From Escherichia phage vB_EcoM_ESCO9, in sequence record OM386654.1: DNA of 64,000 nt. The stretch is one strand, 5' to 3'. How positions within the stretch are numbered: the stretch's first letter is position 1; each line of letters begins with the position of its first letter. The notes below the pieces were generated by a model, which worked only from the letters and a program-made list of their open reading frames with translations, was not told the DNA's origin and ran no database searches. Position numbers and translations under genes: made by a program. This document shows, piece by piece, positions 1 to 17,527 of the stretch.

Positions 1-947
1 TGGGTTGCCGTAGCTTCTTGTCATACTATGCAACAGAGCAAGGTGAAAAATATGATGGTCGTTTCAACTTAGGCGTAGTTTCTTTAAACTTACCTATCAT
101 TGCAGCAGAGTCCCGTGAAAAGGGCATCTTATTTACTGAACTGTTGGAACAACATATGGAGATGGCGTATAAGGCACATATGCTACGTGTTAACCGTATT
201 AGACATACCAAAGCATCTCAAAACCCTACATTGTTTATGGAAGGGGCTTTAGCTCGACTAGAAGCTAATGAAGAGATTGGTAAACTATTCGAAGGTGGTT
301 ATGCCTCTATTAGTATCGGTTATGTAGGTTTAGCAGAAGCTATGGAGATTTTATACCCAGGTAACACCAATCCAAAAGCAATGGGTAAAAACATCCTTCA
401 ATATATGAAGGATATCTGTGGCACATTTAAAGAACGTTCTGGTTTAGCTTTTAGTTTGTATGGAACACCAGCAGAATCCTTGTGCTATAAATTTGCCAAA
501 GCATTAAATGATCGCTATCCTGGTTCTATTGATCGTGACTACTTGACAAACTCTTTCCATCAACCTGTGTGGATGCACACTACCCCGTTCCAAAAGTGGG
601 ATTATGAGGAAGGTTTTGCACAAATCAGTAATGGTGGGAACATAGGCTATGTAGAAACACCAAACCTTAAAAATAACTTGCAAGCACTGGAAACCCTTGT
701 AGATTATGCCTACAACAAAATTCCTTATTTTGGCGTGAACCAACCTGTAGATCAGTGTTTCAAATGTGGTTTTCATGGTGAATTTAAGGCAACAGCTAAA
801 GGCTTCGAGTGTCCAATTTGTGGCAATCATGAGGAAGAATCTATATCTGTAATCAGAAGAGTGTCAGGATACCTGTCTGCCCCTAACTCTCGCCCTTATA
901 ATAAAGGTAAAATGCAAGAGGTATTAGAAAGGGAGAAACATTTTTGA
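1..947 (+). CDS. nrdD: Anaerobic ribonucleoside-triphosphate reductase NrdD, C-terminal part (gene starts upstream of window)
   Basis: Open frame runs to window start; C-terminal Zn-ribbon CFKCGFHGEF...CPICGN and glycyl-radical loop RVSGYLSAP typical of class III RNR. Confidence 0.85.
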   Translation, partial: GCRSFLSYYATEQGEKYDGRFNLGVVSLNLPIIAAESREKGILFTELLEQHMEMAYKAHMLRVNRIRHTKASQNPTLFMEGALARLEANEEIGKLFEGGYASISIGYVGLAEAMEILYPGNTNPKAMGKNILQYMKDICGTFKERSGLAFSLYGTPAESLCYKFAKALNDRYPGSIDRDYLTNSFHQPVWMHTTPFQKWDYEEGFAQISNGGNIGYVETPNLKNNLQALETLVDYAYNKIPYFGVNQPVDQCFKCGFHGEFKATAKGFECPICGNHEEESISVIRRVSGYLSAPNSRPYNKGKMQEVLEREKHF

Positions 948-1414
948 ATTACGCCGGATATGAACCTGTTGACATGCTCAACGGTGATGGTGTAAGATGC
1001 TCTTTGTGGGTGAGCGGTTGTAGCCACGGTTGCCGTGGCTGCTTTAACCAGAAAGCCTGGTCGTATAACTACGGACAAGAGTTCACTACTGAAACATTAG
1101 ATCTTATCTTGAAAGATTTATCTCGACCTTTCATTAAAGGATTAACAGTTTTAGGTGGTGAACCTCTTGACAAAGAGAACATTGACACTGTAGAGTATGT
1201 TCTTGAGAAGGTAAGAGATTGTTTTGGAAACAAAAAAGATATTGTCTTATATACAGGATATCTTTTTGAAGAAATTCCAGAAAAAATTAAAAAACTGGTT
1301 GACATAGTGATAGATGGTAAGTATGATATGAATCAACCAACAACGAAACGTTATAGAGGCTCAGATAATCAACGAATGTGGGTTAAGAAAGACAACATTT
1401 GGGAATCTGACTAA
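944..1414 (+). CDS. nrdG: Anaerobic RNR activating protein NrdG (radical SAM)
   Basis: N-terminus MNYAGYEPVDMLNGDGVRCSLWVSGCSHGCRGCFN matches NrdG pattern with CxxxCxxC cluster; TTG start overlaps nrdD stop, GGGAG RBS upstream. Confidence 0.8.
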   Translation: MNYAGYEPVDMLNGDGVRCSLWVSGCSHGCRGCFNQKAWSYNYGQEFTTETLDLILKDLSRPFIKGLTVLGGEPLDKENIDTVEYVLEKVRDCFGNKKDIVLYTGYLFEEIPEKIKKLVDIVIDGKYDMNQPTTKRYRGSDNQRMWVKKDNIWESD

Positions 1415-2845: not shown

Positions 2846-3001
2846 ATGCTTACAGATGATGAATATAAAGCTATCCAAGAAAAACTAACGGAGCTTGAAA
2901 TTCTTGCTGTCAATATTAAAGATCAATCACATGCTGGAAAGTTACTACATCAAGAGATCAATAAAATTAAGCAGATGATATTCTTTTGGACGGAGGATTA
3001 A
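2846..3001 (+). CDS. Small hypothetical protein (51 aa), not in ORF track
   Basis: ATG preceded by strong RBS AAGGGGGAAG; fills otherwise empty gap; stop overlaps next gene region. Confidence 0.3.
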   Translation: MLTDDEYKAIQEKLTELEILAVNIKDQSHAGKLLHQEINKIKQMIFFWTED

Positions 3002-3003
3002 AA

Positions 3004-3660
3004 ATGACTGTTAAGCATATTTCTTTTGATGTATGGAATACTCTTATTACTGCTAATCCTTTGTATGCAGAAGAACGCAACAAGGTTATTGCCGAGTATG
3101 CCTCTTGTTCTGAGGCAGAAGCAGCTACTGTTTATAAAGAGGTAAAAACTCTCTTAGATTTAAAAGCAGAAAAAGGCATTTGTGGAACGTCTAAGGATGC
3201 TTGGGTAACACTTTCTACTCGTTTGAACATTGATCTTGACAAAGTGGATGGGTTAAAAAGAGATTGTTTGGCAATGTTTATAAAACATCCTCCAACATTG
3301 AATCCTGAACTTTGCAAGAAGTTGGAAGAGCTAAGTTCAACCTACTCTTTGAGTATTAAGAGCAATACTAATTTTGTACCAGGTAGTTTCTTAGCTGTAT
3401 ATTCTGGTTTAACAAAATTACCATTCGACTTTATGCATTTTTCTGACGAGTTTTGCTTGTGTAAACCAGATCCTAGGTTTTTTAAACTCTCTTTTGATGA
3501 AATGGTGACGTTTGATCTCGCACCAGAGGAGATTTTACACGTTGGAGATAGTTTGATTTATGATGGAAAAGCTGTTGACATAGGGATGAAGTTCTGTCAT
3601 ATTATTAATCCAGAAGACTTGTTGGCTAAACTTAAAAAAGAGGAACTTATTAATGCGTAA
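3004..3660 (+). CDS. HAD-superfamily hydrolase/phosphatase-like protein
   Basis: FDVWNTL N-terminal motif, CKPDPRFF (HAD motif III KP-D-P) and GDSLIYD (motif IV); RBS GGAGG. Confidence 0.6.
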   Translation: MTVKHISFDVWNTLITANPLYAEERNKVIAEYASCSEAEAATVYKEVKTLLDLKAEKGICGTSKDAWVTLSTRLNIDLDKVDGLKRDCLAMFIKHPPTLNPELCKKLEELSSTYSLSIKSNTNFVPGSFLAVYSGLTKLPFDFMHFSDEFCLCKPDPRFFKLSFDEMVTFDLAPEEILHVGDSLIYDGKAVDIGMKFCHIINPEDLLAKLKKEELINA

Positions 3661-4510
3661 TCAAATTCAACATTTTGCTAATACTTTTACTAACCTGAAG
3701 GAAGCAAAATTTAACATTGCAGATTATTCCAAACTAAAGTTTGGTAGTAACCAGGCAGCAAAAAGAATGGGGCGCATTCTGGCTGAAAGTTTCTTTTCTA
3801 AGTATGAAGAACGACTGGTAAATGAAAGTTTTGTTGTTATTCCATCTCCATATAACTATGTGAAAAATGCAGCTACAGTGTTATCTGAACATTTTGTAGA
3901 TCACCTCAACTACCTAATCTCTATCAAAGGTGGTAAACCAGTGGAGTGGGATATCGTTCATCGTAAAGTGAGCTATATCAATGATTATGGATTTCTTAGC
4001 AAAGAAGATCGTAAGGCTTTGATCGATGGTGACACTTTCTCTATCAATCGTGATTTCTGGGGTAATAAAACTCTGATTTTCATTGATGATGTTAATATTA
4101 CAGGAACGCACGAAGAAAAACTTATTGAAATTTTAGACAAAGAAGGTGTTGAAAACGATACGTTTTTCCTGTACTTTGCAAAGTATGAAGGTACAGAAGC
4201 CAACACCGAAGCTGCACTTAACTTCAACTATATCAATAACCTGGCAGCTTTTATTAAGATGATTAAGCAAGAAACTGATGCTAAATGTTTGGTTCGTCCT
4301 ATTAAGTATCTAATGAGTCAAAGCGAAGTTGATTTTAAAATTGCACTTTCACAGCTTCCTTTGTATTATGTAGAACAACTGTTCTTTGGTTGCCTTGCAG
4401 AAGGCTACAATAACATTGAAAAATATAAAGAGAACTTTGATTTTCTACGTCAATTTTTTGAAAGCAACATTATCAATAAATCTAATGTTAAAGGGGATTA
4501 TTATGTCTAA
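3653..4510 (+). CDS. Phosphoribosyltransferase (PRTase)-domain protein
   Basis: PRPP-binding type motif LIFIDDVNITGTHEE; start overlaps HAD stop (translational coupling). Confidence 0.55.
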   Translation: MRNQIQHFANTFTNLKEAKFNIADYSKLKFGSNQAAKRMGRILAESFFSKYEERLVNESFVVIPSPYNYVKNAATVLSEHFVDHLNYLISIKGGKPVEWDIVHRKVSYINDYGFLSKEDRKALIDGDTFSINRDFWGNKTLIFIDDVNITGTHEEKLIEILDKEGVENDTFFLYFAKYEGTEANTEAALNFNYINNLAAFIKMIKQETDAKCLVRPIKYLMSQSEVDFKIALSQLPLYYVEQLFFGCLAEGYNNIEKYKENFDFLRQFFESNIINKSNVKGDYYV

Positions 4511-5219
4511 TAAAGTAATGACTTTCGGAGATCCTATCACCAATATTACAGAAAAAGATTTTGGGCGTGTAGCAACAGATAAAGATGGTGTCTTAAGAAT
4601 TCGTGTACAAGGTATTACAGCACAGGATGAATATGCTGTGTATGTTTCAGGTCTTAACTATATTGATGATCGCATTACACAAAACTTTGCACTGATCGGT
4701 GGTGTAGAGAAAATGTACTGGGAAGATGAAATTGTAACAAGTTATCCAGCAGGTATCATTGAGGTATACGGTGATCTTTTAGCAGCAGCCGAGAGAGGCG
4801 ATATAGACGCTATAGCACACTGCTGTAACTGTTTTTGCACTATGGGTAGTGGTATTGCACCAAAAATTAAAAGTAAGTGGCCTGGGGCGTTTAAAGCAGA
4901 CTGTGCCACTAAACGTGGTGATTATAAAAAATTAGGTACGTTTACCAAGTATACAGAAAACAATTTGACAATTTATAATTTATATGGACAATATGGTTAT
5001 AGTCGTCGTGAGGAAGGCAAGCGTGACCTGAATTATGAAGCTATCTATAATGCGTTAGATAGTATGGGAGACGATGTTGTATCTTCAGGCGGTAAAATTG
5101 TAGGTTTACCAATGCTTGGTTGTGGTTTGGCTGGAGGTTCTTGGAATATTGTAAAACTTATGATCGAAGAAACTCTAGTAAACAAAGGTTTAAATGTAAT
5201 TGTTTACAAACTGAAATAA
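4503..5219 (+). CDS. Macro-domain-like protein (ADP-ribose binding/processing)
   Basis: DAIAHCCNC...GSGIA and LPMLGCGLAGG resemble macro-domain phosphate-binding loops; start ATG 4503 overlaps PRTase stop; RBS AAAGGGGA. Confidence 0.45.
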   Translation: MSNKVMTFGDPITNITEKDFGRVATDKDGVLRIRVQGITAQDEYAVYVSGLNYIDDRITQNFALIGGVEKMYWEDEIVTSYPAGIIEVYGDLLAAAERGDIDAIAHCCNCFCTMGSGIAPKIKSKWPGAFKADCATKRGDYKKLGTFTKYTENNLTIYNLYGQYGYSRREEGKRDLNYEAIYNALDSMGDDVVSSGGKIVGLPMLGCGLAGGSWNIVKLMIEETLVNKGLNVIVYKLK

Positions 5220-5775: not shown

Positions 5776-6753
5776 ATGCAACTGGGTTTCCCAATTATTG
5801 ATGTGGTTGTTTTAGTGGGTATTTTAGTGTTGTCGATTTGTATTGATTTCTTTGGCCACAGAGAAAACAAAGAAATTTCATTTAAATCTGCAATTGGTTG
5901 GTCAATTTTTTGGATTGGGGTATCATTAGCCTACTATGGTTTTGTATACTTCCAGCACGGTGCTGATTTTGCGAGCTTGTTCTTGAGTGGGTATGTGTTG
6001 GAGAAATCTCTTTCTGTAGATAACTTAGTAGTATTTGTGGCAGTATTCGCAAGTTTTGGTATTAAAAGCACACACTTGCAACACAAGATTCTACTTTGGG
6101 GTATTGCAGGTGCGATTGTCTTCCGAGGTGTGTTTGTAGCAGTAGGCACTTACTTGTTGAGTTTGGGTTGGTATGTTAATATCTTCTTCGGTGCTGTCAT
6201 CCTTTTCTGTGCGGCTAAAATGGTATTCGCTGGAGATAATGATGCAGAAGTTGATTACTCTAAACACTGGGCTACTCGCATTGTTCGTAAGCTGTTCCCT
6301 GTATCTGATCAGATGGATGGTGAGAAGTTCTTCACAATCAAAAATGGTGTTCGTGTAGCAACTCCGGCTCTGGTTTGTGTGTTTGTAATGGAAATGGTTG
6401 ACGTAATCTTTGCAGTAGACTCTGTTCCAGCAGTAATTGCAGTGACACAAGAACCTCTGCTGGTGTTCTCTTCGATGCTCTGTGCAATCTTAGGTTTACG
6501 TGCTCTGTTCTTTGTTCTTAGTGTTGCACTGAAGTATTTGGTTCATCTGGAGAAAGCAGTTATCGTAGTCCTGGTATTTGTGGGTGTAAAACTGATGTAT
6601 CATCCGTTTGCAGAAACTCTGCACGCAAAAGTGAGTTTCCTGCCAGCACACATTGATCCGACGATCAGTATGTATATTGTGTTAGGTACTCTTGGGTTGG
6701 GTGTTATTGCAAGTTTAATCTTCCCTGAAAAAGAAGACCAGACTGTTGCTTAA
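5776..6753 (+). CDS. terC: TerC-family integral membrane protein
   Basis: Multi-TM protein with duplicated TerC signature: LEKSLSVDNLVVFVAVF and EMVDVIFAVDSVPAVIAVT. Confidence 0.8.
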   Translation: MQLGFPIIDVVVLVGILVLSICIDFFGHRENKEISFKSAIGWSIFWIGVSLAYYGFVYFQHGADFASLFLSGYVLEKSLSVDNLVVFVAVFASFGIKSTHLQHKILLWGIAGAIVFRGVFVAVGTYLLSLGWYVNIFFGAVILFCAAKMVFAGDNDAEVDYSKHWATRIVRKLFPVSDQMDGEKFFTIKNGVRVATPALVCVFVMEMVDVIFAVDSVPAVIAVTQEPLLVFSSMLCAILGLRALFFVLSVALKYLVHLEKAVIVVLVFVGVKLMYHPFAETLHAKVSFLPAHIDPTISMYIVLGTLGLGVIASLIFPEKEDQTVA

Positions 6754-6782: not shown

Positions 6783-6985
6783 AGGTGATCTGATGGTAGT
6801 TTTACGTGTTCTTTGGATTCTGTTTGAAAATATTTGTTTTGCTTTAGGGTTATTTTGTTTGATTTTTATCTTGACAACATACATTGATAACCATACAATT
6901 ACTATCAACAGGAACGGAGAACAGATGTATTGTTTCTCTAGGGATTTTAAAAATTGTGTTGAGACTTTAAATGAGAGGGTTACAA

Positions 6986-7576
6986 ATGAAAAACATTAAA
7001 TCTTTTATTGTTGCAGTTGTTTTAGGTAGTGCATTGCTGGTAGGTTGTGATGATTCTGAAAATGTACAAAATCAACGTTACCAACAAACACCAAATCAGA
7101 TGGTAGATGAACAATATGTAAATCAGCCTGCACCTCAAGTTGTTCAAGCAGCACCTGCACAACCTTCAACAGTTGTTGTGCAAGGAGGCGGCAGTGGTTC
7201 TTCTGGTGTAGGTGAGTTTGCTACAGGTATGCTTCTTGGTCATATGTTGAGTGGTAATAGTGGCGGTGGTGGTTATAGAGATGGTGGTAGCAGCACAACA
7301 ATTATTAATAACAACGCTGCTCCTACAACTAACAGTAAAGCATATACAACACAAAAGCATAGTTTTTATGATAAACAAGGAAATACATATACAACCACTA
7401 AACAAAACACAATTAAGCAGCAAAGTGTACAAACGTATTCACGCCCATCAACAACAAAAGTGAATAGTGATTACTCTGCTCGTAAGTCTTACTCAAGCCC
7501 TATTAGCTCTTATAGTAAGTCTTCGAAAAGTTATTCTTCGTCGAAACGTAGTTTTAGTAGCTCACGTCGTCGTTAA
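6986..7576 (+). CDS. Putative lipoprotein, Gly/Ser/Thr-rich
   Basis: Signal peptide with lipobox LLVGC; low-complexity S/T/G-rich mature region; RBS GAGAGG. Confidence 0.5.
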   Translation: MKNIKSFIVAVVLGSALLVGCDDSENVQNQRYQQTPNQMVDEQYVNQPAPQVVQAAPAQPSTVVVQGGGSGSSGVGEFATGMLLGHMLSGNSGGGGYRDGGSSTTIINNNAAPTTNSKAYTTQKHSFYDKQGNTYTTTKQNTIKQQSVQTYSRPSTTKVNSDYSARKSYSSPISSYSKSSKSYSSSKRSFSSSRRR

Positions 7577-7611: not shown

Positions 7612-8463
7612 ATGAAACTAGAAGTTGGTAAAGTATATCGCCTGGAAGGTTGGATCTTTAATCAAGAAATCCTTGAGAAGAATAAAGATGGTTTTGAGTT
7701 TGTTGGTACTACCAAGGAAAGTATGCACGATGACGAATACTGTAAATTCGTTGGTAAAAATACAGGTCAAGAACAATTTTGCTTTAAGAGCGCAATCGGG
7801 GACTATGCTTCTGTAATGCCAACACCAGAAAAGACTTCGAAGCAATATACTGTCTTTGGTGTAAAACTTGAAGAACTTGTAGAACACCCACGTTTTGAAG
7901 AGTTCAAGGTTGCTGCAATGCGCAAGCATTCTGAAATTAAAATACATAATTTGTTTGATTTAGAAGATCGGTTTGATATCTTTATGTATGATCGCAGGGA
8001 AAAGCATTTTGATGCAACGACTTCAAAATTTGCTGCAACAGAGGATATTAAAATCCTTGATGTTGATACCTTTCTTGAGAGTGTATCGTTTGTATTCATT
8101 CCTAAATACAAAAAACGTAGTGATCATAAACGTGTGAAAGGAACTCCTCGTAAGAAACGTACTGTAAACAAAGCAACTTTGCACTTCACTTCTGGTGATA
8201 AATATACTCTCAAAGGGTTTGAAAGTGTTTTATATGATGCTGGAACAGGTAATATCAAGTTTATCATTAAGGCAACCTACAAAGGTACGGTATTGCACGA
8301 AGAGGCTGTTACACTACCTGTATTCGATATCTCTCGTGTTGAGGTACGGGGTGTTAAAGAGTCCTTCGATCTGGATTTCTTAACTACTAATGCTACTGGT
8401 TATGTTAATCTGGAAGCAGATGGAGCATTTATTACTACAAATTATTTAGATATGTTTGTTTAA
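7612..8463 (+). CDS. Hypothetical protein (283 aa)
   Basis: Long ORF with RBS AAGGAGAAA; no motif recognised. Confidence 0.45.
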   Translation: MKLEVGKVYRLEGWIFNQEILEKNKDGFEFVGTTKESMHDDEYCKFVGKNTGQEQFCFKSAIGDYASVMPTPEKTSKQYTVFGVKLEELVEHPRFEEFKVAAMRKHSEIKIHNLFDLEDRFDIFMYDRREKHFDATTSKFAATEDIKILDVDTFLESVSFVFIPKYKKRSDHKRVKGTPRKKRTVNKATLHFTSGDKYTLKGFESVLYDAGTGNIKFIIKATYKGTVLHEEAVTLPVFDISRVEVRGVKESFDLDFLTTNATGYVNLEADGAFITTNYLDMFV

Positions 8464-8531
8464 TACTTAATTTGTGTTATGATGGTGGTACAGAGGTATC
8501 ACCATCTACTAAAGAATATGGAGGAAATTGA

Positions 8532-9635
8532 ATGTCCAGTCCTTTTATCAGTGCCGTAAAAAGCAAACCGTCTGAAATGAGTGTATTCACGGCAACAACA
8601 GAAAAAAGTAAGTCTTTGTTTGCTCCAAGTGCTATGGATGCAAGCCCTGTATATGCCCCTGCTGTTGCACGACCTGTACAAATGCTGCCTCCAATGTCTC
8701 GTGAAGAGATTGAACAGGTTGGTGCTGATGCAGGACTTACTCTTCGTAACCTTAATGCTGAAGTGCTTAAACACCAGCGTTCATCTCAGGGAGATGAAAT
8801 GAGTGAACGTTTAACTGCACTTATTAAGCAAGCAAAGCAACTTGATCCTAACTCTATTAAACAATCTAAAGGCTTAGGTAAACTAGTTAAGAAAGTATTA
8901 GGTATGAAAGAAGATTTGTTTGGTGAATTTGACACCATCAATAATCGTATTGAAGGTTTGGTAAAGACACTACAAACAGACTTGAAAAAAGAAGAAGATT
9001 CTTTACGATATCTGCAACGTTTAGAAGAGGCTATTGCAAAATATGCTCTTAGCTTAAACAGGGATATAGAGCTTCTAACAGCTACTTATGAAAAAGAAGA
9101 AGTTCGCCTTAATACACTACCTGAAAATGAAGTAGAAGAGCGTCAACGTACTCGTGACACTATGGATCTGCTTGAAATTCGTATTGCAGATCTGAAAGCC
9201 TTACGTTTACTGTGCGTTCAGATGGGGCCACGTGTACAAAGTATGCAGAAAGTATCTGCAAGTTTGATGCGATCAGCCCGTAATATTGTGAATAATGTTA
9301 TTCCTGCTTACTCTGCAAACTTTTCTATGTATATTGAAAGTCTACGCCAGAAGAAAGCAGCCGATACGCAGAACAATGTACTGAATGAATTTAATGCTGC
9401 TATTGCAATGGGTAGTGATCTGGCTGCACAAAACCAGATTGAAGCTACACAACTTGCTAATCGTCAAGTATTGGATATTGAAACATTGCGTCGTGATCAA
9501 GAAAACTTAGTTAAAATGTTGGAAGAAACTAACCGAATCAACACTGAAGCCCGTGCTGCTCGTATTGATTACATTCAAGAAGTGCAATCTCTTGAAGATG
9601 GTATGATTCAAACTGTTAAACGTGGTCTACTTTAA
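8532..9635 (+). CDS. Coiled-coil protein, candidate TelA/KlaA-like toxic-anion-resistance family member
   Basis: 367-aa predominantly helical/coiled-coil protein; assignment rests mainly on size, composition and position between terC-like and terD-like genes. Confidence 0.35.
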   Translation: MSSPFISAVKSKPSEMSVFTATTEKSKSLFAPSAMDASPVYAPAVARPVQMLPPMSREEIEQVGADAGLTLRNLNAEVLKHQRSSQGDEMSERLTALIKQAKQLDPNSIKQSKGLGKLVKKVLGMKEDLFGEFDTINNRIEGLVKTLQTDLKKEEDSLRYLQRLEEAIAKYALSLNRDIELLTATYEKEEVRLNTLPENEVEERQRTRDTMDLLEIRIADLKALRLLCVQMGPRVQSMQKVSASLMRSARNIVNNVIPAYSANFSMYIESLRQKKAADTQNNVLNEFNAAIAMGSDLAAQNQIEATQLANRQVLDIETLRRDQENLVKMLEETNRINTEARAARIDYIQEVQSLEDGMIQTVKRGLL

Positions 9636-9648
9636 GGAGAAATATATT

Positions 9649-9855
9649 ATGAATATTAAAATTTACAAACTGTCTGGTTCTATGATTGCTGTTCAGTATG
9701 ACAATGAAGATCGTTATGTTCTCCTCCAGGATGCTTGGTTAGATGATCCTAATGTATTCACTGTCCTGCGAGAACTACGTTCTGTCTATACCTATTCTTC
9801 TAAAGATGGTTTTGACAATTCAACGATGGAATTGGTAAAAGAGGAGAATGTGTAA
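9649..9855 (+). CDS. Hypothetical protein (68 aa)
   Basis: ATG with RBS AAGGAGAAA. Confidence 0.4.
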   Translation: MNIKIYKLSGSMIAVQYDNEDRYVLLQDAWLDDPNVFTVLRELRSVYTYSSKDGFDNSTMELVKEENV

Positions 9856-10055
9856 TGAGTAAAGATATTCACTTAACTCGTGAAGAATTGCAAACCATTA
9901 TGGAAGATGCTTTCATTGATGGTTGGAAACAAGGTCAAGAATCAGATTGGTATGATGCCGAAGATTTTTTGTATTATCATATGACTGCACCTGTAGACGA
10001 GCAAACACACTCTGAAACAACTTTGGCTTTAATTGATCTTAAGGCTGGTGTATAA
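9855..10055 (+). CDS. Hypothetical protein (66 aa)
   Basis: ATG with RBS GAGGAG, start overlaps previous stop. Confidence 0.4.
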   Translation: MSKDIHLTREELQTIMEDAFIDGWKQGQESDWYDAEDFLYYHMTAPVDEQTHSETTLALIDLKAGV

Positions 10056-10618
10056 TGGGGTGTTTTAGTTTCTTGTGCAAAGAGTCTGGTAATGCTGCTC
10101 TTTCTACCTCTTTCGATGGCTCTCCTTGCTACCTATTTCTTTTGAAAGGTGGTAAGGTTGTCGAAGAGATGTATGGGAATTATGATAGCTATGGTAGTGT
10201 TTTCTCTAACGAAGAAGATAAACATGGCAATCGTAAAAGATTTAAGTGGTCTATGCCTTGGGAAGAAGTTTGTAATTTGATGTTCTCTTCCGATCTTGGA
10301 GATGGGATTGCTCTAGTATTAGAAGAGCACTTTACAGGCGAGATCCCAACAGAAAGATCTGAAGAAGACCCTAACCAGGGTTGGGGTGATGGGGAAGAAG
10401 ATCCAGATTGCTTCTTCAGCACTGAAAATAATAAATTTAAACGTGTTGACAATCCTTACCACAAAGTGCATAATACTTGCATTGAGACAGAAGAAGACTC
10501 AAAGCTAGAAATTGAAGATGATTTAGTTGTAACTATCTCTTTAAACGAGTTGCAAAAAATCACTAGAGAGGCTTTCTATTTAGGTTGGAAAGTAGGTAAA
10601 GGAGGAGATAGTGCTTAA
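10055..10618 (+). CDS. Hypothetical acidic protein (187 aa)
   Basis: ORF in coupled array; Asp/Glu-rich. Confidence 0.4.
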   Translation: MGCFSFLCKESGNAALSTSFDGSPCYLFLLKGGKVVEEMYGNYDSYGSVFSNEEDKHGNRKRFKWSMPWEEVCNLMFSSDLGDGIALVLEEHFTGEIPTERSEEDPNQGWGDGEEDPDCFFSTENNKFKRVDNPYHKVHNTCIETEEDSKLEIEDDLVVTISLNELQKITREAFYLGWKVGKGGDSA

Positions 10619-10880
10619 ATTTAATATCAAAGACGACAAATCAGATGAACCTAAATGTTTTGGAGAACTTGACGTAGGTGATACATTTGTATATTATGTT
10701 GCCTATCAAGATTCTGGTTTAGATACATTCAGAAATTTAGTGTTTATTAAGGTTAATACAAACCAAGCAATGTGTCTGAACGGTTCGCAAAGAGGTCAAC
10801 TTAGCTGTATTTCGTATGATACAGAAATGGTAGAAGTGGATTTAGAAGTTACTAACATTACACTCAGAAAGGAGAAATAA
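10611..10880 (+). CDS. Hypothetical protein (89 aa)
   Basis: GTG start with RBS AGGAGGAG. Confidence 0.4.
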   Translation: MLKFNIKDDKSDEPKCFGELDVGDTFVYYVAYQDSGLDTFRNLVFIKVNTNQAMCLNGSQRGQLSCISYDTEMVEVDLEVTNITLRKEK

Positions 10881-10881
10881 T

Positions 10882-11676
10882 ATGTCCAATAAAATCAGTC
10901 TTAAAAAACGTCAAGAAACTCTTACCGTATCTCTGCGTAAGAAAAAGATTAACGATGTTGTTCTTCGTGTCGGTAGTGCCTTAGATATTTCGGGTAGTAT
11001 GTGTGAGCTGTATCGTGATGGCACTGTTAGTGATTTTGTAGGTAAACTGCTGCCGTTTGGTATGAAGTTTGATGATAATGCACAGATTGACATGTGGGCT
11101 TTCAATAGTTCTTCTTTTGAACTGCCTCCTGCAACGGCTGATGTATATGATGATTATGTCGGCTCTTGTATGTCTAATGTTTGCATCAATGGTGGTACAG
11201 CTTATGCCCCAGTAATGCAAGAGATCTATGATACATACTTCGGTAGTGTACCTATGAAAAATATTACACGCGAAGTCGTTGAGTATGAAGAAGTTCCGGC
11301 TAAGGGTTTCCTTGCTAAACTAACTGGTAAAAAAGAACGTGTAGAAGTTACACGTACTGTTGTAGAACAGGTTGTAGATACTGATGCACAAGTTGATCGT
11401 ACTCCTGCAATGATTTTCTTCCAAACTGACGGGGAGAACATGGATACTTCAGCAGTACGTAGTTTGCTGAACAAACACCGCAACACTCCTGTTTACTGGT
11501 TTATGGTTGGTGTAGGCAATGCAAACTTTAAATTCCTGAAAGACTTGGCAAAAGAATACGATAATGTTGATTTTATCGGTATTGCAGATTTGTCCTTGTC
11601 TGACGAAGAACTTTACGATAAACTGCTATCCGAAGAGTTTGGTGAGTGGGTTAAAAAATTTGGAGCAAAAGCGTAA
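10882..11676 (+). CDS. vWA-domain protein (TerY-like) with TerD-like N-terminal segment
   Basis: MIDAS motifs LDISGSM, GGTAYAP and FFQTDGENMD; N-terminus MSNKISLKKRQETLTVSL resembles TerD N-terminus. Confidence 0.55.
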   Translation: MSNKISLKKRQETLTVSLRKKKINDVVLRVGSALDISGSMCELYRDGTVSDFVGKLLPFGMKFDDNAQIDMWAFNSSSFELPPATADVYDDYVGSCMSNVCINGGTAYAPVMQEIYDTYFGSVPMKNITREVVEYEEVPAKGFLAKLTGKKERVEVTRTVVEQVVDTDAQVDRTPAMIFFQTDGENMDTSAVRSLLNKHRNTPVYWFMVGVGNANFKFLKDLAKEYDNVDFIGIADLSLSDEELYDKLLSEEFGEWVKKFGAKA

Positions 11677-11683
11677 AAAACGC

Positions 11684-11711
11684 TTGACTTTGTAGAAAAG
11701 ATTAGTAAAAT
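11684..11711 (+). promoter_or_regulatory. Sigma70-like promoter candidate (TTGACT-16-TAAAAT) upstream of terD
   Basis: Consensus-like hexamers, 16-nt spacer, about 40 nt upstream of terD start. Confidence 0.4.
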
Positions 11712-11748
11712 AGACAACGTAAATTAACAACAAAGGAGATAATAAATT

Positions 11749-12345
11749 ATGACTCAGAAAATTTCCCTGAAAAAAGGTTCTAGCGAAAAAGTTTCTCTGA
11801 AAAAGATTGCACCAGCACTGAAACGCATTCGTCTGGAATTCTCTTGGAAATCTAACGAAAAACTGGATCTGGATGTTAGTGCTCTGATTTGCCGACACAA
11901 TGCATCTGGTCTGCCGGAACTGTTGTCTCCTCGCCACCTGGTGTGCTACGCGCAGAAATTTGATCCTGAACGTTCTACTTTTGCAGGTGAAGATGTTCGT
12001 GATGGTGTAGGACAGATGGAGCAGATTGATGTTACACTGGATAATATCTCTGCTGAAGCACAGGAAATTGCATTCGTAATTACTATTGATGACGAAACGG
12101 GTAAGAAACGCCTTGGTCACGCTACCGAAGGTTTCCTTAAAATCTTCGATGATGAACGTAATGTTGAACTGCTGGATTTTGACTTCTTGGCTCCAGAACT
12201 TGCAGGTAATACCATTTGCCACGTTGCCTCCCTGGTGCGGGAAGATAGCGAATGGAAACTGAAAGCATATGGTGTAGGTAAAGCTGGACTTGACATTTAT
12301 GATGTAGTTAAAGCGTTTGGCGCTGGCGACGATTGGTTCGAGTAA
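11749..12345 (+). CDS. terD: TerD-family protein
   Basis: ISLKKG...KVSLKK, LDLDVSALIC, FVITIDD, EWKLKAYGVG align in order with the TerD family pattern as recalled from E. coli TerD. Confidence 0.85.
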   Translation: MTQKISLKKGSSEKVSLKKIAPALKRIRLEFSWKSNEKLDLDVSALICRHNASGLPELLSPRHLVCYAQKFDPERSTFAGEDVRDGVGQMEQIDVTLDNISAEAQEIAFVITIDDETGKKRLGHATEGFLKIFDDERNVELLDFDFLAPELAGNTICHVASLVREDSEWKLKAYGVGKAGLDIYDVVKAFGAGDDWFE

Positions 12346-12354
12346 TAAATCATA

Positions 12355-12378
12355 GCGCCCTTCGGGGCGCATATTTTA
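12355..12378 (+). terminator. Intrinsic terminator (GCGCCC-TTCG-GGGCGC + AT/T-run)
   Basis: UUCG tetraloop hairpin immediately after terD stop. Confidence 0.5.
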
Positions 12379-12397
12379 AATAGAAGAGGAGAAAACA

Positions 12398-13000
12398 ATG
12401 GGTATTACTTTAGAAGGTCAAAAACTTATTCGTAGCGGTAATTTTCTTGTGGATATTGACAACAATGAAGATTATGCTTTAGAAGTTAGTGATGTACTGT
12501 TTAATGCTTTGCAGTCTGGTTTCAATTTTGAAGTTTATGAAGTAATCCGTGGAACTAAACTCAGAGATACCCTTGGATCAACTAGTGATGTTTATTCGGC
12601 AATCTGGCAATATTTCGGGTTAATGGATGGTAAGACATACCTTACTGATAGTTATTCTGAAGATGTTGTTTATCTTGATATGGAAGAGTTTCGTCGTCTG
12701 TTCAAAAATGAAGAAAATGAAGAAGAGGGTGAACTTTTTGAAGGAATTACTCTCGAAGGTAATGTTGAAATTGTGTATAAAGCAGGAAAAACATTCCACT
12801 TGCGCGAAAACGGTAAAGCAAAAGTTGATTTTGTAAACAAGACAGTAACAACTGAACATAATTATCTTAAAGATGGTCAACCAGCTTTTGAACGTGTAAC
12901 AATTAAATTTAAAGTATTGTCTGCACTAATTACGGATCAAGAACGTATTGATTTTGTAGAAGATGGTGTAGTAACTCATACGAAGGTCTACAACATCTAA
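12398..13000 (+). CDS. Hypothetical protein (200 aa)
   Basis: ORF with RBS AGAGGAG. Confidence 0.45.
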   Translation: MGITLEGQKLIRSGNFLVDIDNNEDYALEVSDVLFNALQSGFNFEVYEVIRGTKLRDTLGSTSDVYSAIWQYFGLMDGKTYLTDSYSEDVVYLDMEEFRRLFKNEENEEEGELFEGITLEGNVEIVYKAGKTFHLRENGKAKVDFVNKTVTTEHNYLKDGQPAFERVTIKFKVLSALITDQERIDFVEDGVVTHTKVYNI

Positions 13001-13092: not shown

Positions 13093-13602
13093 TTGTCAAT
13101 AAAAACCTTTGTCGCAATTGCGTTACTATCCTTAACTGCTTTTACATTTACACCTGTCGTGGCGCAAGCCGAAGCTGCAAACGTAAAAACTGCTAAAGTA
13201 GTTCACAAGTGTACAAAGCGTGATAGTAAAGAAAATCTATTAGCTTGTGCAATCTATGCAGAAAGTCGTAATCAAGGAAAGCGCGGTATGTCTGCTGTTG
13301 GTAATGTAGTATTAAATAGGGCTAGAGATTCATATTTCCCTGATACTATAAAAGAAGTTTTGTTTCAAAAAGGACAATTCTCTTACACAAAGACATTCAA
13401 CGTTATGGAACGTGATAAGTGGAAGGAAGCTAAGGCTATAGCAGAACGTCTGCTTTATCTCGATACGCATTTTCCAGAATTACGAATTGCATTAGATATT
13501 ACAAAAGGAGCATTATACTTTAAAAAATCTACAATAAGAGCACACTGGGAAAAAGATATGGTTCTAGTGTACCGCTACAAAGAACATCAATTCTATCGCT
13601 AA
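13093..13602 (+). CDS. Secreted cell-wall hydrolase, SleB/Hydrolase_2-like
   Basis: N-terminal signal peptide (…FTPVVAQAEAANV); motif CAIYAESRNQG...GNVVLNRA...FSYTK typical of SleB-type cell wall hydrolases; TTG start with RBS AGGAGG. Confidence 0.6.
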   Translation: MSIKTFVAIALLSLTAFTFTPVVAQAEAANVKTAKVVHKCTKRDSKENLLACAIYAESRNQGKRGMSAVGNVVLNRARDSYFPDTIKEVLFQKGQFSYTKTFNVMERDKWKEAKAIAERLLYLDTHFPELRIALDITKGALYFKKSTIRAHWEKDMVLVYRYKEHQFYR

Positions 13603-14350: not shown

Positions 14351-14914
14351 ATGATATTTCACATAACTCCCTATCTTTCTGGAGATATTGGAAAAGGTAT
14401 CAATGACACAATAAGTGTCTTACCAGAAGATAGTTGGATTTGCCTAAGAGACATTGATACAATGTTTCTTCTTCCAGAACAACCTGCTTGGCTGGAATCA
14501 ATTGTCCGTTCAAATCCTGATTTTGATGTTCTTGGTGCATCTTGTAACAGATTGGGATCAACATATCAATTATTTAATAATGAAAGAAGTGAAGATCCGA
14601 ATATATTACACCACATTGAGATTGCAAAAAGAGCACATCTAGAATGGGGAAACTCAATAGAGGAAGTACCTACAGATGCTATCTTAGCAGGATTCTTTCT
14701 TCTCTTTCGTAAGAGTCTGTGGAATGAAATTCCTTTTGAGGAAAGATCAATACAGTTTGATATAATTTTCTCTAAAGCATTGCACGCTAACAATAAAAGG
14801 CTAGGTTTACTACGTGGGTTATATTTATTTCACACATACCGTTTAGGTAATGATGATCCTAGAAAAGCTGTTTCACACCTTTTACATTGTCAAGACATGA
14901 ATAAAATTATTTAA
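14351..14914 (+). CDS. Hypothetical protein, possibly glycosyltransferase-related
   Basis: 187-aa ORF with RBS GGAGGGAG directly upstream of three GT-like genes; no firm motif. Confidence 0.35.
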   Translation: MIFHITPYLSGDIGKGINDTISVLPEDSWICLRDIDTMFLLPEQPAWLESIVRSNPDFDVLGASCNRLGSTYQLFNNERSEDPNILHHIEIAKRAHLEWGNSIEEVPTDAILAGFFLLFRKSLWNEIPFEERSIQFDIIFSKALHANNKRLGLLRGLYLFHTYRLGNDDPRKAVSHLLHCQDMNKII

Positions 14915-14923
14915 GGAGTTATT

Positions 14924-15610
14924 TTGGAAAATACAAAAATTGGTGTTGGTGTTATTACTGTAGGTAAGCGTCCTCTTAAAGATTATCTTGTGACTGATCC
15001 TAGTGCTACTTTTGTTGTACAGTATGATCGGGAACGAAAAGGTGTTGCATATGCTCGTAATGAACTGATGAAAAAGTTTTATGATGAAGGATATGATTAC
15101 TGGTTTATTTTTGATGATGATTGCTATCCTGTTGTTCAAGGTTGGGAAACATATTTTGTAAAACAGGCGAAGGAAAATGGTTGGGATTTCTTTGGTATGC
15201 CTGAATACTTTAAAGATAAAGTAAAAGGTATTGAAGGGGAAGTGGTTATTTGGGAGCTAGGAATGTGCCAGTTTGGTATGTATTCCCGTGCAGTTATTGA
15301 GAAAGCTGGCTATTTCCGCTCATACACCCACGGCTATGGGTATGAAGATGCAGAGTGGATTCATCGCGTCCCACTGGCAGGTTTGAACCGAGGTATTCAA
15401 GGCGTACCATGTCCTATTCGAATTATGGCGTTTATCCATCCTGATGATGTATTTGGAGACAATCCTTTACCTTTTGCGAATCTGTCAAAAGAAGAGAAAG
15501 AACAGGGGATTGGTGTAAACTGGGAACAATATAAACAATCCCTGGAGGATCTTCGCAATGGTAAAACTTTTATCTCTTATGAGGAGGCTCAAAAATATGG
15601 TAAATCCTAA
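14924..15610 (+). CDS. Putative glycosyltransferase (GT-A-like, DxD-type)
   Basis: Acidic motif FIFDDDCYP resembling DxD nucleotide-sugar-binding motif; TTG start with RBS AAGGAG. Confidence 0.4.
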   Translation: MENTKIGVGVITVGKRPLKDYLVTDPSATFVVQYDRERKGVAYARNELMKKFYDEGYDYWFIFDDDCYPVVQGWETYFVKQAKENGWDFFGMPEYFKDKVKGIEGEVVIWELGMCQFGMYSRAVIEKAGYFRSYTHGYGYEDAEWIHRVPLAGLNRGIQGVPCPIRIMAFIHPDDVFGDNPLPFANLSKEEKEQGIGVNWEQYKQSLEDLRNGKTFISYEEAQKYGKS

Positions 15611-16571
15611 TACTCCTGTACTTAAGTGTGATAATAAGTTAGGCAGTGGTTGTGATTACCATCGTATTGTAATGCCATTTGCTGGAAATACGTTTAAACC
15701 TAAGAAAGACGTTTTAGTTTTTAATAGAGTGTATTCTCGTGGATCAGACGAAGTTAAACGCCTGAAGGCACAAGGTGTTAAGATTATTGTTGATTTAGAT
15801 GATTTTTATTCGCTTAATCCTGAACATTATATGGCTGGCGTATTTACTAATCACTCAAAGACTATTGTAGAGATGATTAAGTTAGCAGATGTGGTTACTG
15901 TAACAACAGAATACCTAGCTTACAAAATTCGTCATTTAAATCGTAATGTTGTCGTTATTAGAAACGCACTACCTTACGACGAAGGTCAATTTACTTTGAC
16001 AAAAGACCGTTATTCTGACACGCCTATTATTTGGGCGGGAGGAGCAAGCCATGAACCTGATTTATCTCTTGTAGCTAATACATTTGATGATACGCTATTG
16101 ACAATTGCAGGGTATGAAGTGTATCCTTCTGCACCTGTTGGAAATAATAGTCAGTATCTAACTACTGCGGAGTGGGTTAAAGTAAAACGTAAAATTCCAA
16201 ATGCACAGTATAAACCAGCTATTAAAAATTTAGGTGAGTATATGTCTGTGTATGACGGTCACAGTATTGCAATTGCTCCTCTGGTAGATAATGACTTCAA
16301 CAACTGTAAAAGCAATTTGAAGATTTTGGAAGCAGGTGCAAAGGGTCTTCCTATTATCTGTTCTCCTGTGCTGCCGTACTTCAATCCGGTAGATGCAAAG
16401 GCTGTTATCTATGCAGACTCTAAAGCATCTTGGCATTATAAAGTTGTCAAGCTAATGAGGAACCCTAGATACACAGAAGATCGTGGTATGATGCTTGCAG
16501 AACACGTTCGTCTTAATTATAATCTTGCAGATGCTAATGAACTGCGTCGTCAAGTTATTGAAAGTCTTTAA
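15597..16571 (+). CDS. Putative GT-B fold glycosyltransferase (paralog 1)
   Basis: C-terminal motif KSNLKILEAGAKGLPIICSP resembles the GT-B E-x7-E/LEAxAxGxP sugar-donor motif; RBS GAGGAGG. Confidence 0.5.
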   Translation: MVNPNTPVLKCDNKLGSGCDYHRIVMPFAGNTFKPKKDVLVFNRVYSRGSDEVKRLKAQGVKIIVDLDDFYSLNPEHYMAGVFTNHSKTIVEMIKLADVVTVTTEYLAYKIRHLNRNVVVIRNALPYDEGQFTLTKDRYSDTPIIWAGGASHEPDLSLVANTFDDTLLTIAGYEVYPSAPVGNNSQYLTTAEWVKVKRKIPNAQYKPAIKNLGEYMSVYDGHSIAIAPLVDNDFNNCKSNLKILEAGAKGLPIICSPVLPYFNPVDAKAVIYADSKASWHYKVVKLMRNPRYTEDRGMMLAEHVRLNYNLADANELRRQVIESL

Positions 16572-16582
16572 TAAGGAGCTAT

Positions 16583-17527
16583 ATGCCTAATATTATTCTT
16601 GACACACGCGGAAATGAAAAGTATAGTGTATGTGATTTTCATAGAATCATTTTGCCATATAAACGCAAACTGACCATTAATCCTAAGCATAATATTTTTG
16701 TGTTCAATGGAGTACCAACACGTGGAAAGCCAGGTTTCCTGGCTCTTAAACAACTTGGGTTTAAATTGGTAATGGATCTGGATGATTCTTTAATTATTCC
16801 TGAAGGGCATATGCTTGAAGGATTATTTGAAAATCAAATCCGAGATGACCTAAAATGGTTCCTTGAAAGAAGTGATCTTGTAACTACAACAACTCCGGCA
16901 TTAAAGGTTGAATTAAGCCAATACAATGATAATGTACATATTGTGCCTAACGGACTACCTTTTGATGAAGGACAGTTTGTTCTTACTAAAGATCGTTATT
17001 CTAAAAGTCCACTGGTTTGGGCGGGAAGTGAAACACATAAACATGATTTAGCAATTCTTCCTGATTTTGGTAAAGATTTAACTTTATGTGGATTTCGTAG
17101 AGATCACGAAGAGTTAAGTAGTGCTCAATGGTTGCAAATTAAAGAAAATATTCAACCAGATTGTGTTTATGAAGGTATTCGTCCTTATGAGTGTTATATG
17201 GAAGCATACGATGGTCATCAAATCTCCATAGCTCCATTAGTAAATAATCATTTTAATAATGCCAAAAGTAATTTAAAAATTCTTGAAGCTGGTGCTAAAG
17301 GTTTGCCACTCGTTTGTTCGCCACGAGAGAACTATTATACTGAAGAATTTAAAGATCTAATCTTCTTTGCTGATTCAGTTAAAGAGTGGAAAGATATTGT
17401 AGAATACTTAATCGAATCCCCTGATGTTTGTATTGAGAAAGGATTGGCTCTTGCTAAGTATGTAAGAGATAACTACAATATTGATGATTTAAATGAAACC
17501 CGCAGACTGCTTATCGAGGATTTATAA
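16583..17527 (+). CDS. Putative GT-B fold glycosyltransferase (paralog 2)
   Basis: Clear paralog of 15597-16571 (shared FVFNGV/DLDD, LTKDRYS, DGHxISIAPLVNN.FNN.KSNLKILEAGAKGLP blocks); RBS AAGGAG. Confidence 0.5.
   Translation: MPNIILDTRGNEKYSVCDFHRIILPYKRKLTINPKHNIFVFNGVPTRGKPGFLALKQLGFKLVMDLDDSLIIPEGHMLEGLFENQIRDDLKWFLERSDLVTTTTPALKVELSQYNDNVHIVPNGLPFDEGQFVLTKDRYSKSPLVWAGSETHKHDLAILPDFGKDLTLCGFRRDHEELSSAQWLQIKENIQPDCVYEGIRPYECYMEAYDGHQISIAPLVNNHFNNAKSNLKILEAGAKGLPLVCSPRENYYTEEFKDLIFFADSVKEWKDIVEYLIESPDVCIEKGLALAKYVRDNYNIDDLNETRRLLIEDL

What the first reader, a model, noticed from the sequence alone, without database searches (positions are those of the whole stretch)
10882..11676. vWA (MIDAS) protein with a TerD-like N-terminal segment directly upstream of terD
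The MIDAS motifs (DISGSM, GGT, TDGxN) indicate a metal-dependent adhesion/interaction domain, as in TerY proteins. The N-terminus (ISLKKRQETLTVSL) mirrors the TerD N-terminal sequence of the neighbouring gene (ISLKKGSSEKVSLKK), suggesting a shared interaction or recognition segment or partial domain duplication. The architecture is unusual for a phage protein.
Basis: seen in the sequence. Interest (0 to 1): 0.6.

Follow-up and report, generated by a model that had tools for sequence, protein, structure and literature searches.

The report
Phage TerF-type vWA protein beside TerD
This is the already catalogued phi92 gp173-type von Willebrand A protein of a phage-borne "tellurite-resistance" (Ter) gene cluster; its TerD-like N-terminal motif is a real, family-wide sequence pattern, but it is predicted to be a helix belonging to the vWA module, not a piece of TerD.

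Summary
The ORF 10882-11676 (+, 264 aa) is real and has a complete MIDAS. It belongs to Pfam vWA-TerF-like (PF10138, 134 bits), the copine-like vWA of TerF, not the TerY type. The window is a phi92-like E. coli myovirus, and the gene is the phi92 gp173 orthologue (PHROG 5359), annotated elsewhere as "VWA domain-containing protein". It lies in a large + strand Ter cluster: HAD, PRTase_3, Macro, TerC, TelA, vWA, TerD. TerC/TelA/vWA/TerD cassettes recur in other phage contigs and are described in the literature.

The N-terminal resemblance to TerD is more than chance: pairwise E is only 0.086, but profile-profile P is about 1e-4 and 0 of 300 shuffles reach the score. It is not a local or recent duplication. 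The Lys-rich h-x-L-x-K repeat (2-4 units) precedes the vWA core throughout the family, at a fixed 19-20 residues before the MIDAS Asp, including in TerD-vWA fusions, where it lies after the TerD domain. Codons differ between the two genes.

AlphaFold predicts this segment as a confident helix in two subfamilies, whereas the TerD N-terminus is a beta-hairpin with an invariant Gly. So this is an ordinary stand-alone TerF-type vWA ("split TerF") with a conserved helix that Pfam does not model. Interest is low.

The parts
10882..11676 (+). Stand-alone TerF-type (copine-like) vWA/MIDAS protein, phi92 gp173 orthologue
   Evidence: PF10138 7e-39, 134.5 bits against a cutoff of 29.4; PHROG 5359 7e-96; AF2 pLDDT 88.6 with a vWA fold; Foldseek best hits RGLG1/2 and BON1 copine vWA
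10882..10962 (+). Conserved N-terminal extension (aa 1-27): two Lys-rich h-x-L-x-K units (ISLKK...VSLRK), predicted helix alpha0 (aa 7-20), outside the Pfam model
   Evidence: Pfam model starts at aa 28-29; L7, K9, L18, K20 invariant or nearly so; helix in AF2; present in 87 of 95 representatives
10984..11001 (+). MIDAS motif 1, DISGSM (D35-x-S37-x-S39)
   Evidence: Invariant in 60 homologues
11191..11199 (+). MIDAS threonine loop, GGT (aa 104-106)
   Evidence: At least 90% conserved
11425..11439 (+). MIDAS motif 3, TDGEN (aa 182-186)
   Evidence: D183 and G184 invariant, T182 at least 90% conserved
11242..11391 (+). Clade-specific insertion (about aa 121-170), predicted as a long beta-hairpin arm with the conserved tip GF.aKL.GKK
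   Evidence: AF2 strands E125-139 and E151-165, pLDDT 67-84; absent in P0058, P0062, P0064 and the TerF fusions
11749..12345 (+). TerD (phi92 gp172 orthologue), a divergent TerD-domain protein
   Evidence: PF02342 5e-28; PDB 2kxt 8.6e-15
8532..9635 (+). TelA (phi92 gp178 orthologue)
   Evidence: PF05816 5e-34; PHROG 5890 'tellurite resistance'
5776..6753 (+). TerC/Alx-family membrane protein (phi92 gp182 orthologue)
   Evidence: PF03741 1e-38; TIGR03718 322.8 bits, above its cutoff
3653..4510 (+). Ter-associated ComF-like phosphoribosyltransferase
   Evidence: PF15610 PRTase_3 1.5e-41
2986..3660 (+). HAD-family phosphatase of the Ter metabolite module
   Evidence: PF00702 1e-5; NCBIfam HAD-IA hits, all below their curated cut-offs
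4386..5219 (+). Macro-domain protein (annotated start about 4503 in phage Paula)
   Evidence: PF01661 3e-7; DarG-like macrodomain 8e-13, below cutoff

Best explanation
The ORF encodes a stand-alone TerF-type von Willebrand A domain, equivalent to the C-terminal half of bacterial TerF. Bacterial TerF fuses an N-terminal TerD domain to this vWA, so the phage effectively carries a 'split TerF' whose TerD partner is the next gene. Shown: family membership, an intact MIDAS metal site, a copine-like vWA fold, and conserved linkage with TerD, TelA and TerC in several phage lineages and in a bacterial Ter operon. Also shown: the N-terminal 25-27 residues are a conserved, Lys-rich part of the vWA module at a fixed distance from the first core strand, and are predicted helical. 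Inferred: the MIDAS-bound divalent cation captures an acidic side chain of a partner protein. The vWA protein would then act as a metal-dependent adaptor in a complex under the inner membrane with the Ca2+-binding TerD, TelA and the TerC metal transporter. That complex may respond to a nucleotide-like product of the upstream PRTase/HAD/Macro genes. In the infected cell the module would alter envelope and metal physiology, most plausibly to exclude superinfecting phages or colicins or to buffer stress, as proposed for plasmid and jumbo-phage Ter systems. The likeness of the N-terminal motif to the TerD N-terminus is a shared short sequence pattern. It is either convergent or a very old remnant, not a structural TerD fragment and not a recent duplication. 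The confidence of 0.6 is for the whole statement: about 0.95 for the identity and family assignment, about 0.4 for the inferred mechanism and role.
For: PF10138 at 134.5 bits against a cutoff of 29.4, with generic VWA below its cutoff. PHROG 5359. MIDAS residues invariant. AF2 pLDDT 88.6 and pTM 0.79 with a Rossmann-like vWA topology. Foldseek top hits are RGLG1/2 and BON1 copine vWA; the profile search hits BON1 at 2e-4. Cluster content HAD/PRTase_3/Macro/TerC/TelA/vWA/TerD. Ter linkage in other loci: TerC-TelA-vWA-TerD in a 340-kb phage contig, TelA-vWA-TerC-TerD, TerD-vWA-TerC, the syntenic 153-kb phage contig, and a Paenibacillus full Ter operon. TerD-vWA fusions are abundant (2740 hits) and carry the same motif after a variable linker, as does the Klebsiella plasmid TerF. 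The motif is present in 87 of 95 representatives, with its last unit 19-20 aa before the MIDAS Asp. It is a helix in two independent AF2 models (aa 7-20, pLDDT 75-93; aa 221-235, pLDDT 91-93), while the TerD N-terminus forms strands E3-5 and E10-12. Different codons are used for the shared residues. Literature: phage Ter cassettes with the TerF vWA, proposed to act against superinfection (PMC7824862); phage phiKp34 'terF C-terminal vWA domain' next to terD; the top BFVD hit is the vWA of phage ME3.
Against: No experiment bears on the function of any phage Ter gene. The mechanism is inference from comparative genomics and from the general behaviour of MIDAS domains. PADLOC has no model for these proteins. 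The helix call rests on AlphaFold only. The segment's hydrophobic moment is higher at beta periodicity than at helical periodicity (0.45 against 0.09), and the unit spacing varies (modes 8 and 11), so its real conformation is not settled. One bacterial homologue is an orphan without Ter neighbours. The phage TerD has a degenerate Ca2+-binding motif, so Ca2+ signalling may not apply.
Confidence: 0.6

Rival explanations
1. One reading: the N-terminal segment is a TerD-derived piece (a partial domain duplication, or a shared recognition segment). Through it the vWA protein docks onto TerD or onto a partner shared with TerD, for example by beta-strand exchange or augmentation with the TerD sandwich.
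For: The sequence pattern match is non-random (hhalign P about 1e-4, 0 of 300 shuffles) and unique among plausible genes of the window. Both segments are built from tandem h-x-L-x-K units. The hydrophobic periodicity of the vWA segment is more beta-like than helical. The two domains are genetically linked or fused in most contexts.
Against: AF2 gives a confident helix for the segment in two subfamilies, and strands for the true TerD N-terminus. TerD has an invariant Gly at the hairpin turn where the vWA segment has Arg or Lys. The TerD Pfam model does not hit residues 1-35. The natural fusion has pTM 0.54 and a disordered linker, so no confident inter-domain contact is predicted. The segment is kept in an orphan vWA without a TerD neighbour. 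There is no DNA-level similarity, so any duplication would be ancient and family-wide rather than phage-specific.
Confidence: 0.1
2. It is a TerY-type vWA protein, as the finding says: a vWA working with the TerY C-terminal domain and the associated kinase/phosphatase signalling genes of terWXY-type loci.
For: A generic vWA/MIDAS signature is present; a weak PF00092 hit at 3e-4.
Against: The best family is PF10138 vWA-TerF-like, by more than 110 bits over PF00092, which is below its gathering score. No TerY_C or other extra domain is detected. No kinase or PP2C neighbours occur in the window cluster. All homologues carry PF10138.
Confidence: 0.02
3. It is a vWA co-chaperone unrelated to Ter function, for example a MoxR/AAA+-associated vWA used in virion or tail assembly, and merely lies near Ter genes.
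For: vWA-AAA+ pairs exist in phages (PMC7824862). An AAA-type ATPase ORF lies at 1435-2595 in the window.
Against: The ATPase is 8 kb away and is not MoxR-like (only a weak PF00004 hit). Across distant phages the vWA gene travels with TelA, TerC and TerD, not with an ATPase. The domain family is the one fused to TerD in bacteria.
Confidence: 0.03

Closest known systems
TerF of the terZABCDEF operon (IncHI2/IncHI1B plasmids, E. coli O157 ter island); Pfam PF10138 vWA-TerF-like
   Same: The same vWA family with the same MIDAS. The same Lys-rich h-S-L-x-K repeat lies in front of the vWA core (Klebsiella TerF: RISLEKK...ISLAKK.SISLAKHKL). Same association with TerD, TerC and Ter-type PRTase/HAD genes.
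   Different: TerF is a fusion of an N-terminal TerD domain, a linker and the vWA. The phage protein is the vWA half alone, with TerD encoded separately and downstream (reverse order). The phage clade also has a ~45-residue beta-hairpin insertion that the fusions lack.
Phage Ter cassettes already described: Acinetobacter phage vB_AbaM_ME3, Caulobacter jumbo phages, Klebsiella phage phiKp34 (gp131 terF-vWA, gp132/133 terD, gp135 telA); phi92 gp172-gp187
   Same: The same gene set (TerC, TelA, TerF-type vWA, TerD, with or without PRTase/HAD). The ME3 vWA is the best viral structural match (3.5e-14). The window is 98-99% identical to phi92 and Paula.
   Different: Nothing essential. This is the same cassette in a ~147-kb Justusliebigvirus rather than in a jumbo phage.
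Copine / BONZAI1 and RGLG1/2 vWA domains (eukaryotes)
   Same: Closest solved folds (Foldseek E about 2e-6, TM about 0.57) and the only significant PDB sequence-profile hit (BON1, 2e-4). Analogous pairing of a Ca2+-binding beta-sandwich (C2 in copines, TerD here) with a MIDAS vWA domain.
   Different: 10-16% identity. Copines are single C2-C2-vWA chains that bind membranes through C2 domains. Here the beta-sandwich is a TerD domain on a separate polypeptide, and no membrane binding has been shown.
TerD domain (PF02342; PDB 2kxt, 3ibz)
   Same: The N-terminal 16-20 residues share the tandem h-S-L-x-K-K/G pattern with the vWA N-extension.
   Different: In TerD these residues form the first two beta-strands, with an invariant Gly at the turn. 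The vWA segment lacks the Gly, is predicted helical, and is followed by a vWA fold rather than a beta-sandwich.

Membership tests
vWA-TerF-like (Pfam PF10138) | Profile HMM match above the curated gathering score | tested here: met
   134.5 bits against a cutoff of 29.4, E = 7e-39, in two stretches split by the insertion
vWA-TerF-like (Pfam PF10138) | Complete MIDAS (DxSxS, Thr loop, Asp after beta4) | tested here: met
   D35, S37, S39, T106 and D183 present; invariant or at least 90% conserved in 60 homologues
vWA-TerF-like (Pfam PF10138) | vWA (Rossmann-like alpha/beta) fold, closest to copine-type vWA | tested here: met
   AF2 pLDDT 88.6; Foldseek hits RGLG1/2, BON1 and integrin I domains. 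This is a prediction, not an experimental structure.
vWA-TerF-like (Pfam PF10138) | Gene-neighbourhood association with Ter genes (TerD, TerC, TelA/TerB) | tested here: met
   In the window and in 5 of the 6 other distinct contexts examined (the exception is)
TerF proper (TerD-vWA fusion protein) | N-terminal TerD domain fused to the vWA domain in one polypeptide | tested here: not met
   No PF02342 hit in the 264-aa protein or in its first 35 residues. TerD is a separate downstream gene.
TerF proper (TerD-vWA fusion protein) | Metal binding at the MIDAS and a role in tellurite, phage or colicin resistance | not testable with these tools
   Requires biochemistry and genetics
TerY-type vWA | Generic VWA domain plus TerY C-terminal domain, with terW/terX and kinase/phosphatase neighbours | tested here: not met
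   PF00092 at 21.4 bits is below its cutoff of 23.8; no further domain detected; no such neighbours
TerD domain (PF02342), for residues 1-27 | Match to the TerD profile and a beta-hairpin conformation of the N-terminal strands | tested here: not met
   No Pfam hit at E <= 1 for residues 1-35. hhalign probability is only 53% over 16 columns. Predicted as a helix.

The most novel reading that the evidence does not exclude
The Lys-rich tandem h-x-L-x-K repeat that precedes every TerF-type vWA core may be an ancient remnant or mimic of the TerD N-terminal beta-hairpin. It would act as a conformationally switchable docking element. On its own it is helical against the vWA core, but it could pair as a strand with the TerD sandwich, or bind the same acidic or membrane partner as the TerD N-terminus, and so physically couple TerD and vWA even when they are encoded separately, as in this phage. 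This would give the first mechanistic handle on how Ter complexes assemble.
Probability: 0.1. Interest if true: 0.5.

Novelty: already known. Interest (0 to 1): 0.2.

Why it matters
It matters little as a discovery. The gene, its family and the phage Ter cassette are already catalogued, and a role against superinfecting phages has already been proposed. Two modest points may be useful. First, phi92-like coliphages, which are easy to manipulate, carry a nearly complete and compact Ter system (PRTase/HAD/Macro, TerC, TelA, vWA, TerD). That makes them a practical model for testing what Ter systems do, which remains unresolved decades after their discovery. Second, the vWA-TerF module has a conserved ~25-residue Lys-rich N-terminal element that the Pfam model leaves out. 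It is a cheap target for mutagenesis when mapping TerD-vWA or membrane interactions.

Tried and rejected
- Translating window 10882-12345 as one chain, to mimic a vWA-TerD complex for AlphaFold, was rejected by the tool because of 4 stop codons. I used the natural TerD-vWA fusion P0057 instead.
- The Foldseek afdb50 library was unavailable.
- Anantharaman, Iyer & Aravind 2012 (Mol Biosyst), the key Ter comparative-genomics paper, is not held, so I could not check whether the N-terminal motif was noted there.
- PADLOC gave no hits for any Ter protein. NCBIfam has no model for the vWA, TerD or TelA proteins.
- Searching PDB sequences with the single protein gave nothing. The profile search gave only BON1 and RGLG.
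- The promoter/terminator scan was not above shuffled expectation (39 against 33.3 +/- 4.9 promoter-like sites; 9 against 6.9 +/- 2.5 terminator-like sites), so I make no operon-structure claim beyond tight spacing on the same strand.
- A recent duplication of the terD 5' end was rejected, because MAFFT finds no in-register DNA similarity and the codons for the shared residues differ.
- The TerY and MoxR-cochaperone readings were rejected on the HMM results and gene neighbourhoods.

Full report
**What is there.** The window is a phi92-like Escherichia myovirus (Justusliebigvirus, Stephanstirmvirinae). Positions 8500-13000 are 99.0% identical to phage Paula and 98% to phi92, and 110 phage records match the region. 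The ORF at 10882-11676 (+) is real: 264 aa, an ATG start, and a GGAG ribosome-binding site upstream. It corresponds to Phi92_gp173 / Paula_0145 ("conserved hypothetical protein") and to ALITA WWP17731 ("VWA domain-containing protein"). A 2015 RAST annotation of a phi92-like contig already labelled it as a Ter protein (PMC4690881).

**Family.**
- Pfam assigns it to vWA-TerF-like (PF10138; E = 7e-39; 134.5 bits against a cutoff of 29.4). The generic VWA model (21.4 bits) and Copine score below their cutoffs.
- PHROGs places it in phrog_5359 over its full length.
- All 64 word-indexed homologues carry PF10138. An exhaustive phmmer search finds 1225 clusters at 50% identity with E <= 1e-3, mostly stand-alone proteins of 220-280 aa.
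- The MIDAS is complete and conserved. D35, S37, G38, S39, M40, D183 and G184 are invariant. G104, G105, T106 and T182 are at least 90% conserved.
- The AlphaFold2 model built on 60 homologues is confident (pLDDT 88.6, pTM 0.79) and has a vWA topology.
- The nearest solved folds are the copine-type vWA domains RGLG1/2 and BONZAI1 (Foldseek E about 2e-6). BON1 is also the only significant PDB hit for the sequence profile (2e-4).

**Context.** The cluster is much larger and lies entirely on the + strand:

| Coordinates | Gene product | Evidence |
|---|---|---|
| 2986-3660 | HAD hydrolase | |
| 3653-4510 | ComF-like PRTase_3 (PF15610, 1.5e-41) | |
| 4386-5219 | Macro domain | |
| 5776-6753 | TerC/Alx (TIGR03718, above cutoff) | |
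| 6971-7576 | Ser/Gly-rich protein with a lipobox-like signal | |
| 8532-9635 | TelA (PF05816, 5e-34) | |
| 9622-10880 | four small ORFs | |
| 10882-11676 | the vWA protein | |
| 11749-12345 | TerD | |

The same core recurs in distant phage contigs:
- TerC-TelA-vWA-TerD on a 340-kb contig.
- TelA-vWA-TerC-TerD.
- TerD-vWA-TerC.
- A syntenic 153-kb phage contig.

In Paenibacillus the stand-alone vWA heads a full Ter operon (TerB, four TerD genes, TerC, C-C lyase, PRTase). One bacterial homologue is an orphan.

Phage Ter cassettes containing the "TerF vWA" have been described and proposed to act against superinfecting phages (PMC7824862). Klebsiella phage phiKp34 has a "terF C-terminal vWA domain" gene next to terD. 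The best BFVD structural match is the vWA of Acinetobacter phage ME3, the phage singled out in that review. The architecture is therefore not unusual for a phage.

**The N-terminal resemblance to TerD.**
- Pairwise BLASTP gives 11/20 identities but only E = 0.086.
- A profile of the vWA N-extension (residues 1-27, 60 sequences) aligns to columns 1-16 of a TerD profile with hhalign P = 3e-5 to 1.4e-4. None of 300 column shuffles approaches the score (null 9.4 +/- 2.3, maximum 18, observed 26.4).
- Among the window's 186 ORFs, the double motif h-x-L-x-K-[KRG]...h-x-L-x-K occurs only in these two genes plus one antisense ORF, against 0.12 expected. TerD is the best hit, after the vWA protein itself, of an N-extension HMM (E = 0.023; the next is 2.9).

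**The interpretation does not hold.**
1. *The motif is a constitutive part of the vWA-TerF module.* Pfam's model begins only at residue 28-29, yet L7, K9, L18 and K20 are invariant or nearly so.
   - Of 95 diverse representatives with a DxSGSM motif, 87 carry 2-4 tandem h-x-h-x-[KR] units. The last unit starts a fixed 19-20 residues before the MIDAS Asp in 71 of the 92 that have any unit.
   - In TerD-vWA fusions (2740 hits) the motif follows the TerD domain and a variable acidic/Ala-rich linker (consensus LSxIDLRKKxVxxTLEKKxLT).
   - The classical Klebsiella plasmid TerF also has it.
2. *The DNA of the two gene starts shows no in-register similarity.* The codons for shared residues differ (Ser AGT against TCC, Leu CTT against CTG). 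A recent local duplication is excluded.
3. *The predicted structures differ.* AlphaFold predicts the segment as a helix in the phage protein (residues 7-20, pLDDT 75-93). It does the same, independently, in the natural fusion P0057 (residues 221-235, pLDDT 91-93). In that same model the genuine TerD N-terminus forms strands E3-5 and E10-12.
4. *A key residue differs.* TerD has an invariant Gly at the hairpin turn (KKG) where the vWA segment has Arg or Lys.
5. *The Pfam TerD model does not hit residues 1-35*.
6. *No confident inter-domain contact is predicted.* The fusion model has pTM 0.54 and a disordered linker (residues 193-218, pLDDT below 50).

**Caveats.**
- The helix rests on prediction alone.
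- The segment's hydrophobic moment is larger at beta periodicity (0.45) than at helical periodicity (0.09).
- Unit spacing varies, with modes at 8 and 11 residues. That difference of about one helical turn mildly favours a helix, but it does not settle the matter.
- An ancient origin from a TerD N-terminus, or a role in docking to TerD, cannot be excluded. I put this at about 10%.

**How it most likely works.**
- *Shown:* a MIDAS vWA domain genetically coupled to TerD, TelA and TerC.
- *Inferred from the known behaviour of MIDAS domains and from the comparative-genomic model of Ter systems (as summarised in PMC7824862):* the MIDAS cation coordinates an acidic residue of a partner. The protein would then serve as a metal-dependent adaptor in a sub-membrane assembly with TerD, TelA and the TerC metal transporter, possibly responding to a nucleotide-like product of the upstream PRTase/HAD/Macro genes.
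- *Inferred role during infection:* the module would remodel envelope and metal physiology to exclude competing phages or colicins, or to buffer stress.
- No experiment on any phage Ter gene was found.

**Verdict.** This is an ordinary, already catalogued gene. The proposed meaning is not supported: it is not TerY-like, not a TerD-like segment or duplication, and not unusual for a phage. The only mildly new descriptive points are the conserved N-terminal element that Pfam does not model, and a clade-specific beta-hairpin insertion (about residues 121-170).

Noticed in passing
window 2986-5219 (+): HAD hydrolase, Ter-type PRTase_3 (PF15610) and a Macro-domain protein lie in a row upstream of TerC. 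The Macro domain resembles the DarG antitoxin macrodomain (8e-13, below cutoff). This could be the Ter nucleotide-metabolite module, or possibly an anti-DarT (DNA ADP-ribosylation) counter-defence.
   Followed up: partly
window 11749-12345 (+), TerD residues ~80-95: The phage-clade TerD has a shortened, de-acidified version of the conserved acidic motif (bacterial GDNRSGAGDDDDE against phage GEDVRDGVGQ--ME). From memory, this motif forms the Ca2+-binding sites in Klebsiella TerD, so Ca2+ binding may be altered or lost. This TerD is only about 30% identical to bacterial TerDs, and only 22 word-indexed homologues were found.
   Followed up: partly
window 11242-11391 (+), vWA residues ~121-170: A ~45-residue insertion in the vWA fold is predicted as a long beta-hairpin arm (E125-139, E151-165; pLDDT 67-84) with the conserved tip motif GF.aKL.GKK. 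It is present in the phage clade and, in shortened form, in some bacterial homologues (e.g. P0055), but absent from the TerD-vWA fusions and the shortest homologues.
   Followed up: partly
window 6971-7576 (+): A Ser/Gly-rich 201-aa protein with a lipobox-like signal (…ALLVGC) sits between TerC and TelA. It matches PHROG 21570, of unknown function.
   Followed up: no
window 12398-13000 (+): A 200-aa protein directly after TerD (phrog_22473, phi92 gp171) has no Pfam or NCBIfam hit. The genes at the same position in other phage Ter loci (261, 293 and 254 aa; Band_7 in L011) gave no tblastn match to the window.
   Followed up: partly
window 11684-11711 and 12355-12370: A promoter-like TTGACT-16-TAAAAT lies in the 72-nt vWA-terD spacer. 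A GC-rich hairpin, GCGCCCTTCGGGGCGC, lies immediately after the terD stop codon. The overall site counts are not above shuffled expectation.
   Followed up: no
L006 7661-8901 (Klebsiella plasmid NZ_CP015501.1): The classical terF reads as two overlapping ORFs in different frames (TerD half at 7661-8332, vWA half at 8146-8901). This may be a frameshifted terF on this plasmid. The PLSDB gene table lists no gene there.
   Followed up: no
window 18-1414 (+) and 14351-17527 (+): The anaerobic ribonucleotide reductase genes NrdD (C-terminal part) and NrdG lie upstream of the Ter cluster. A run of putative glycosyltransferase genes (so annotated in phage ALITA; the one ORF scanned here, 14351-14914, had no Pfam hit) and a SleB-like cell-wall hydrolase (13093-13602) lie downstream.
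   Followed up: no
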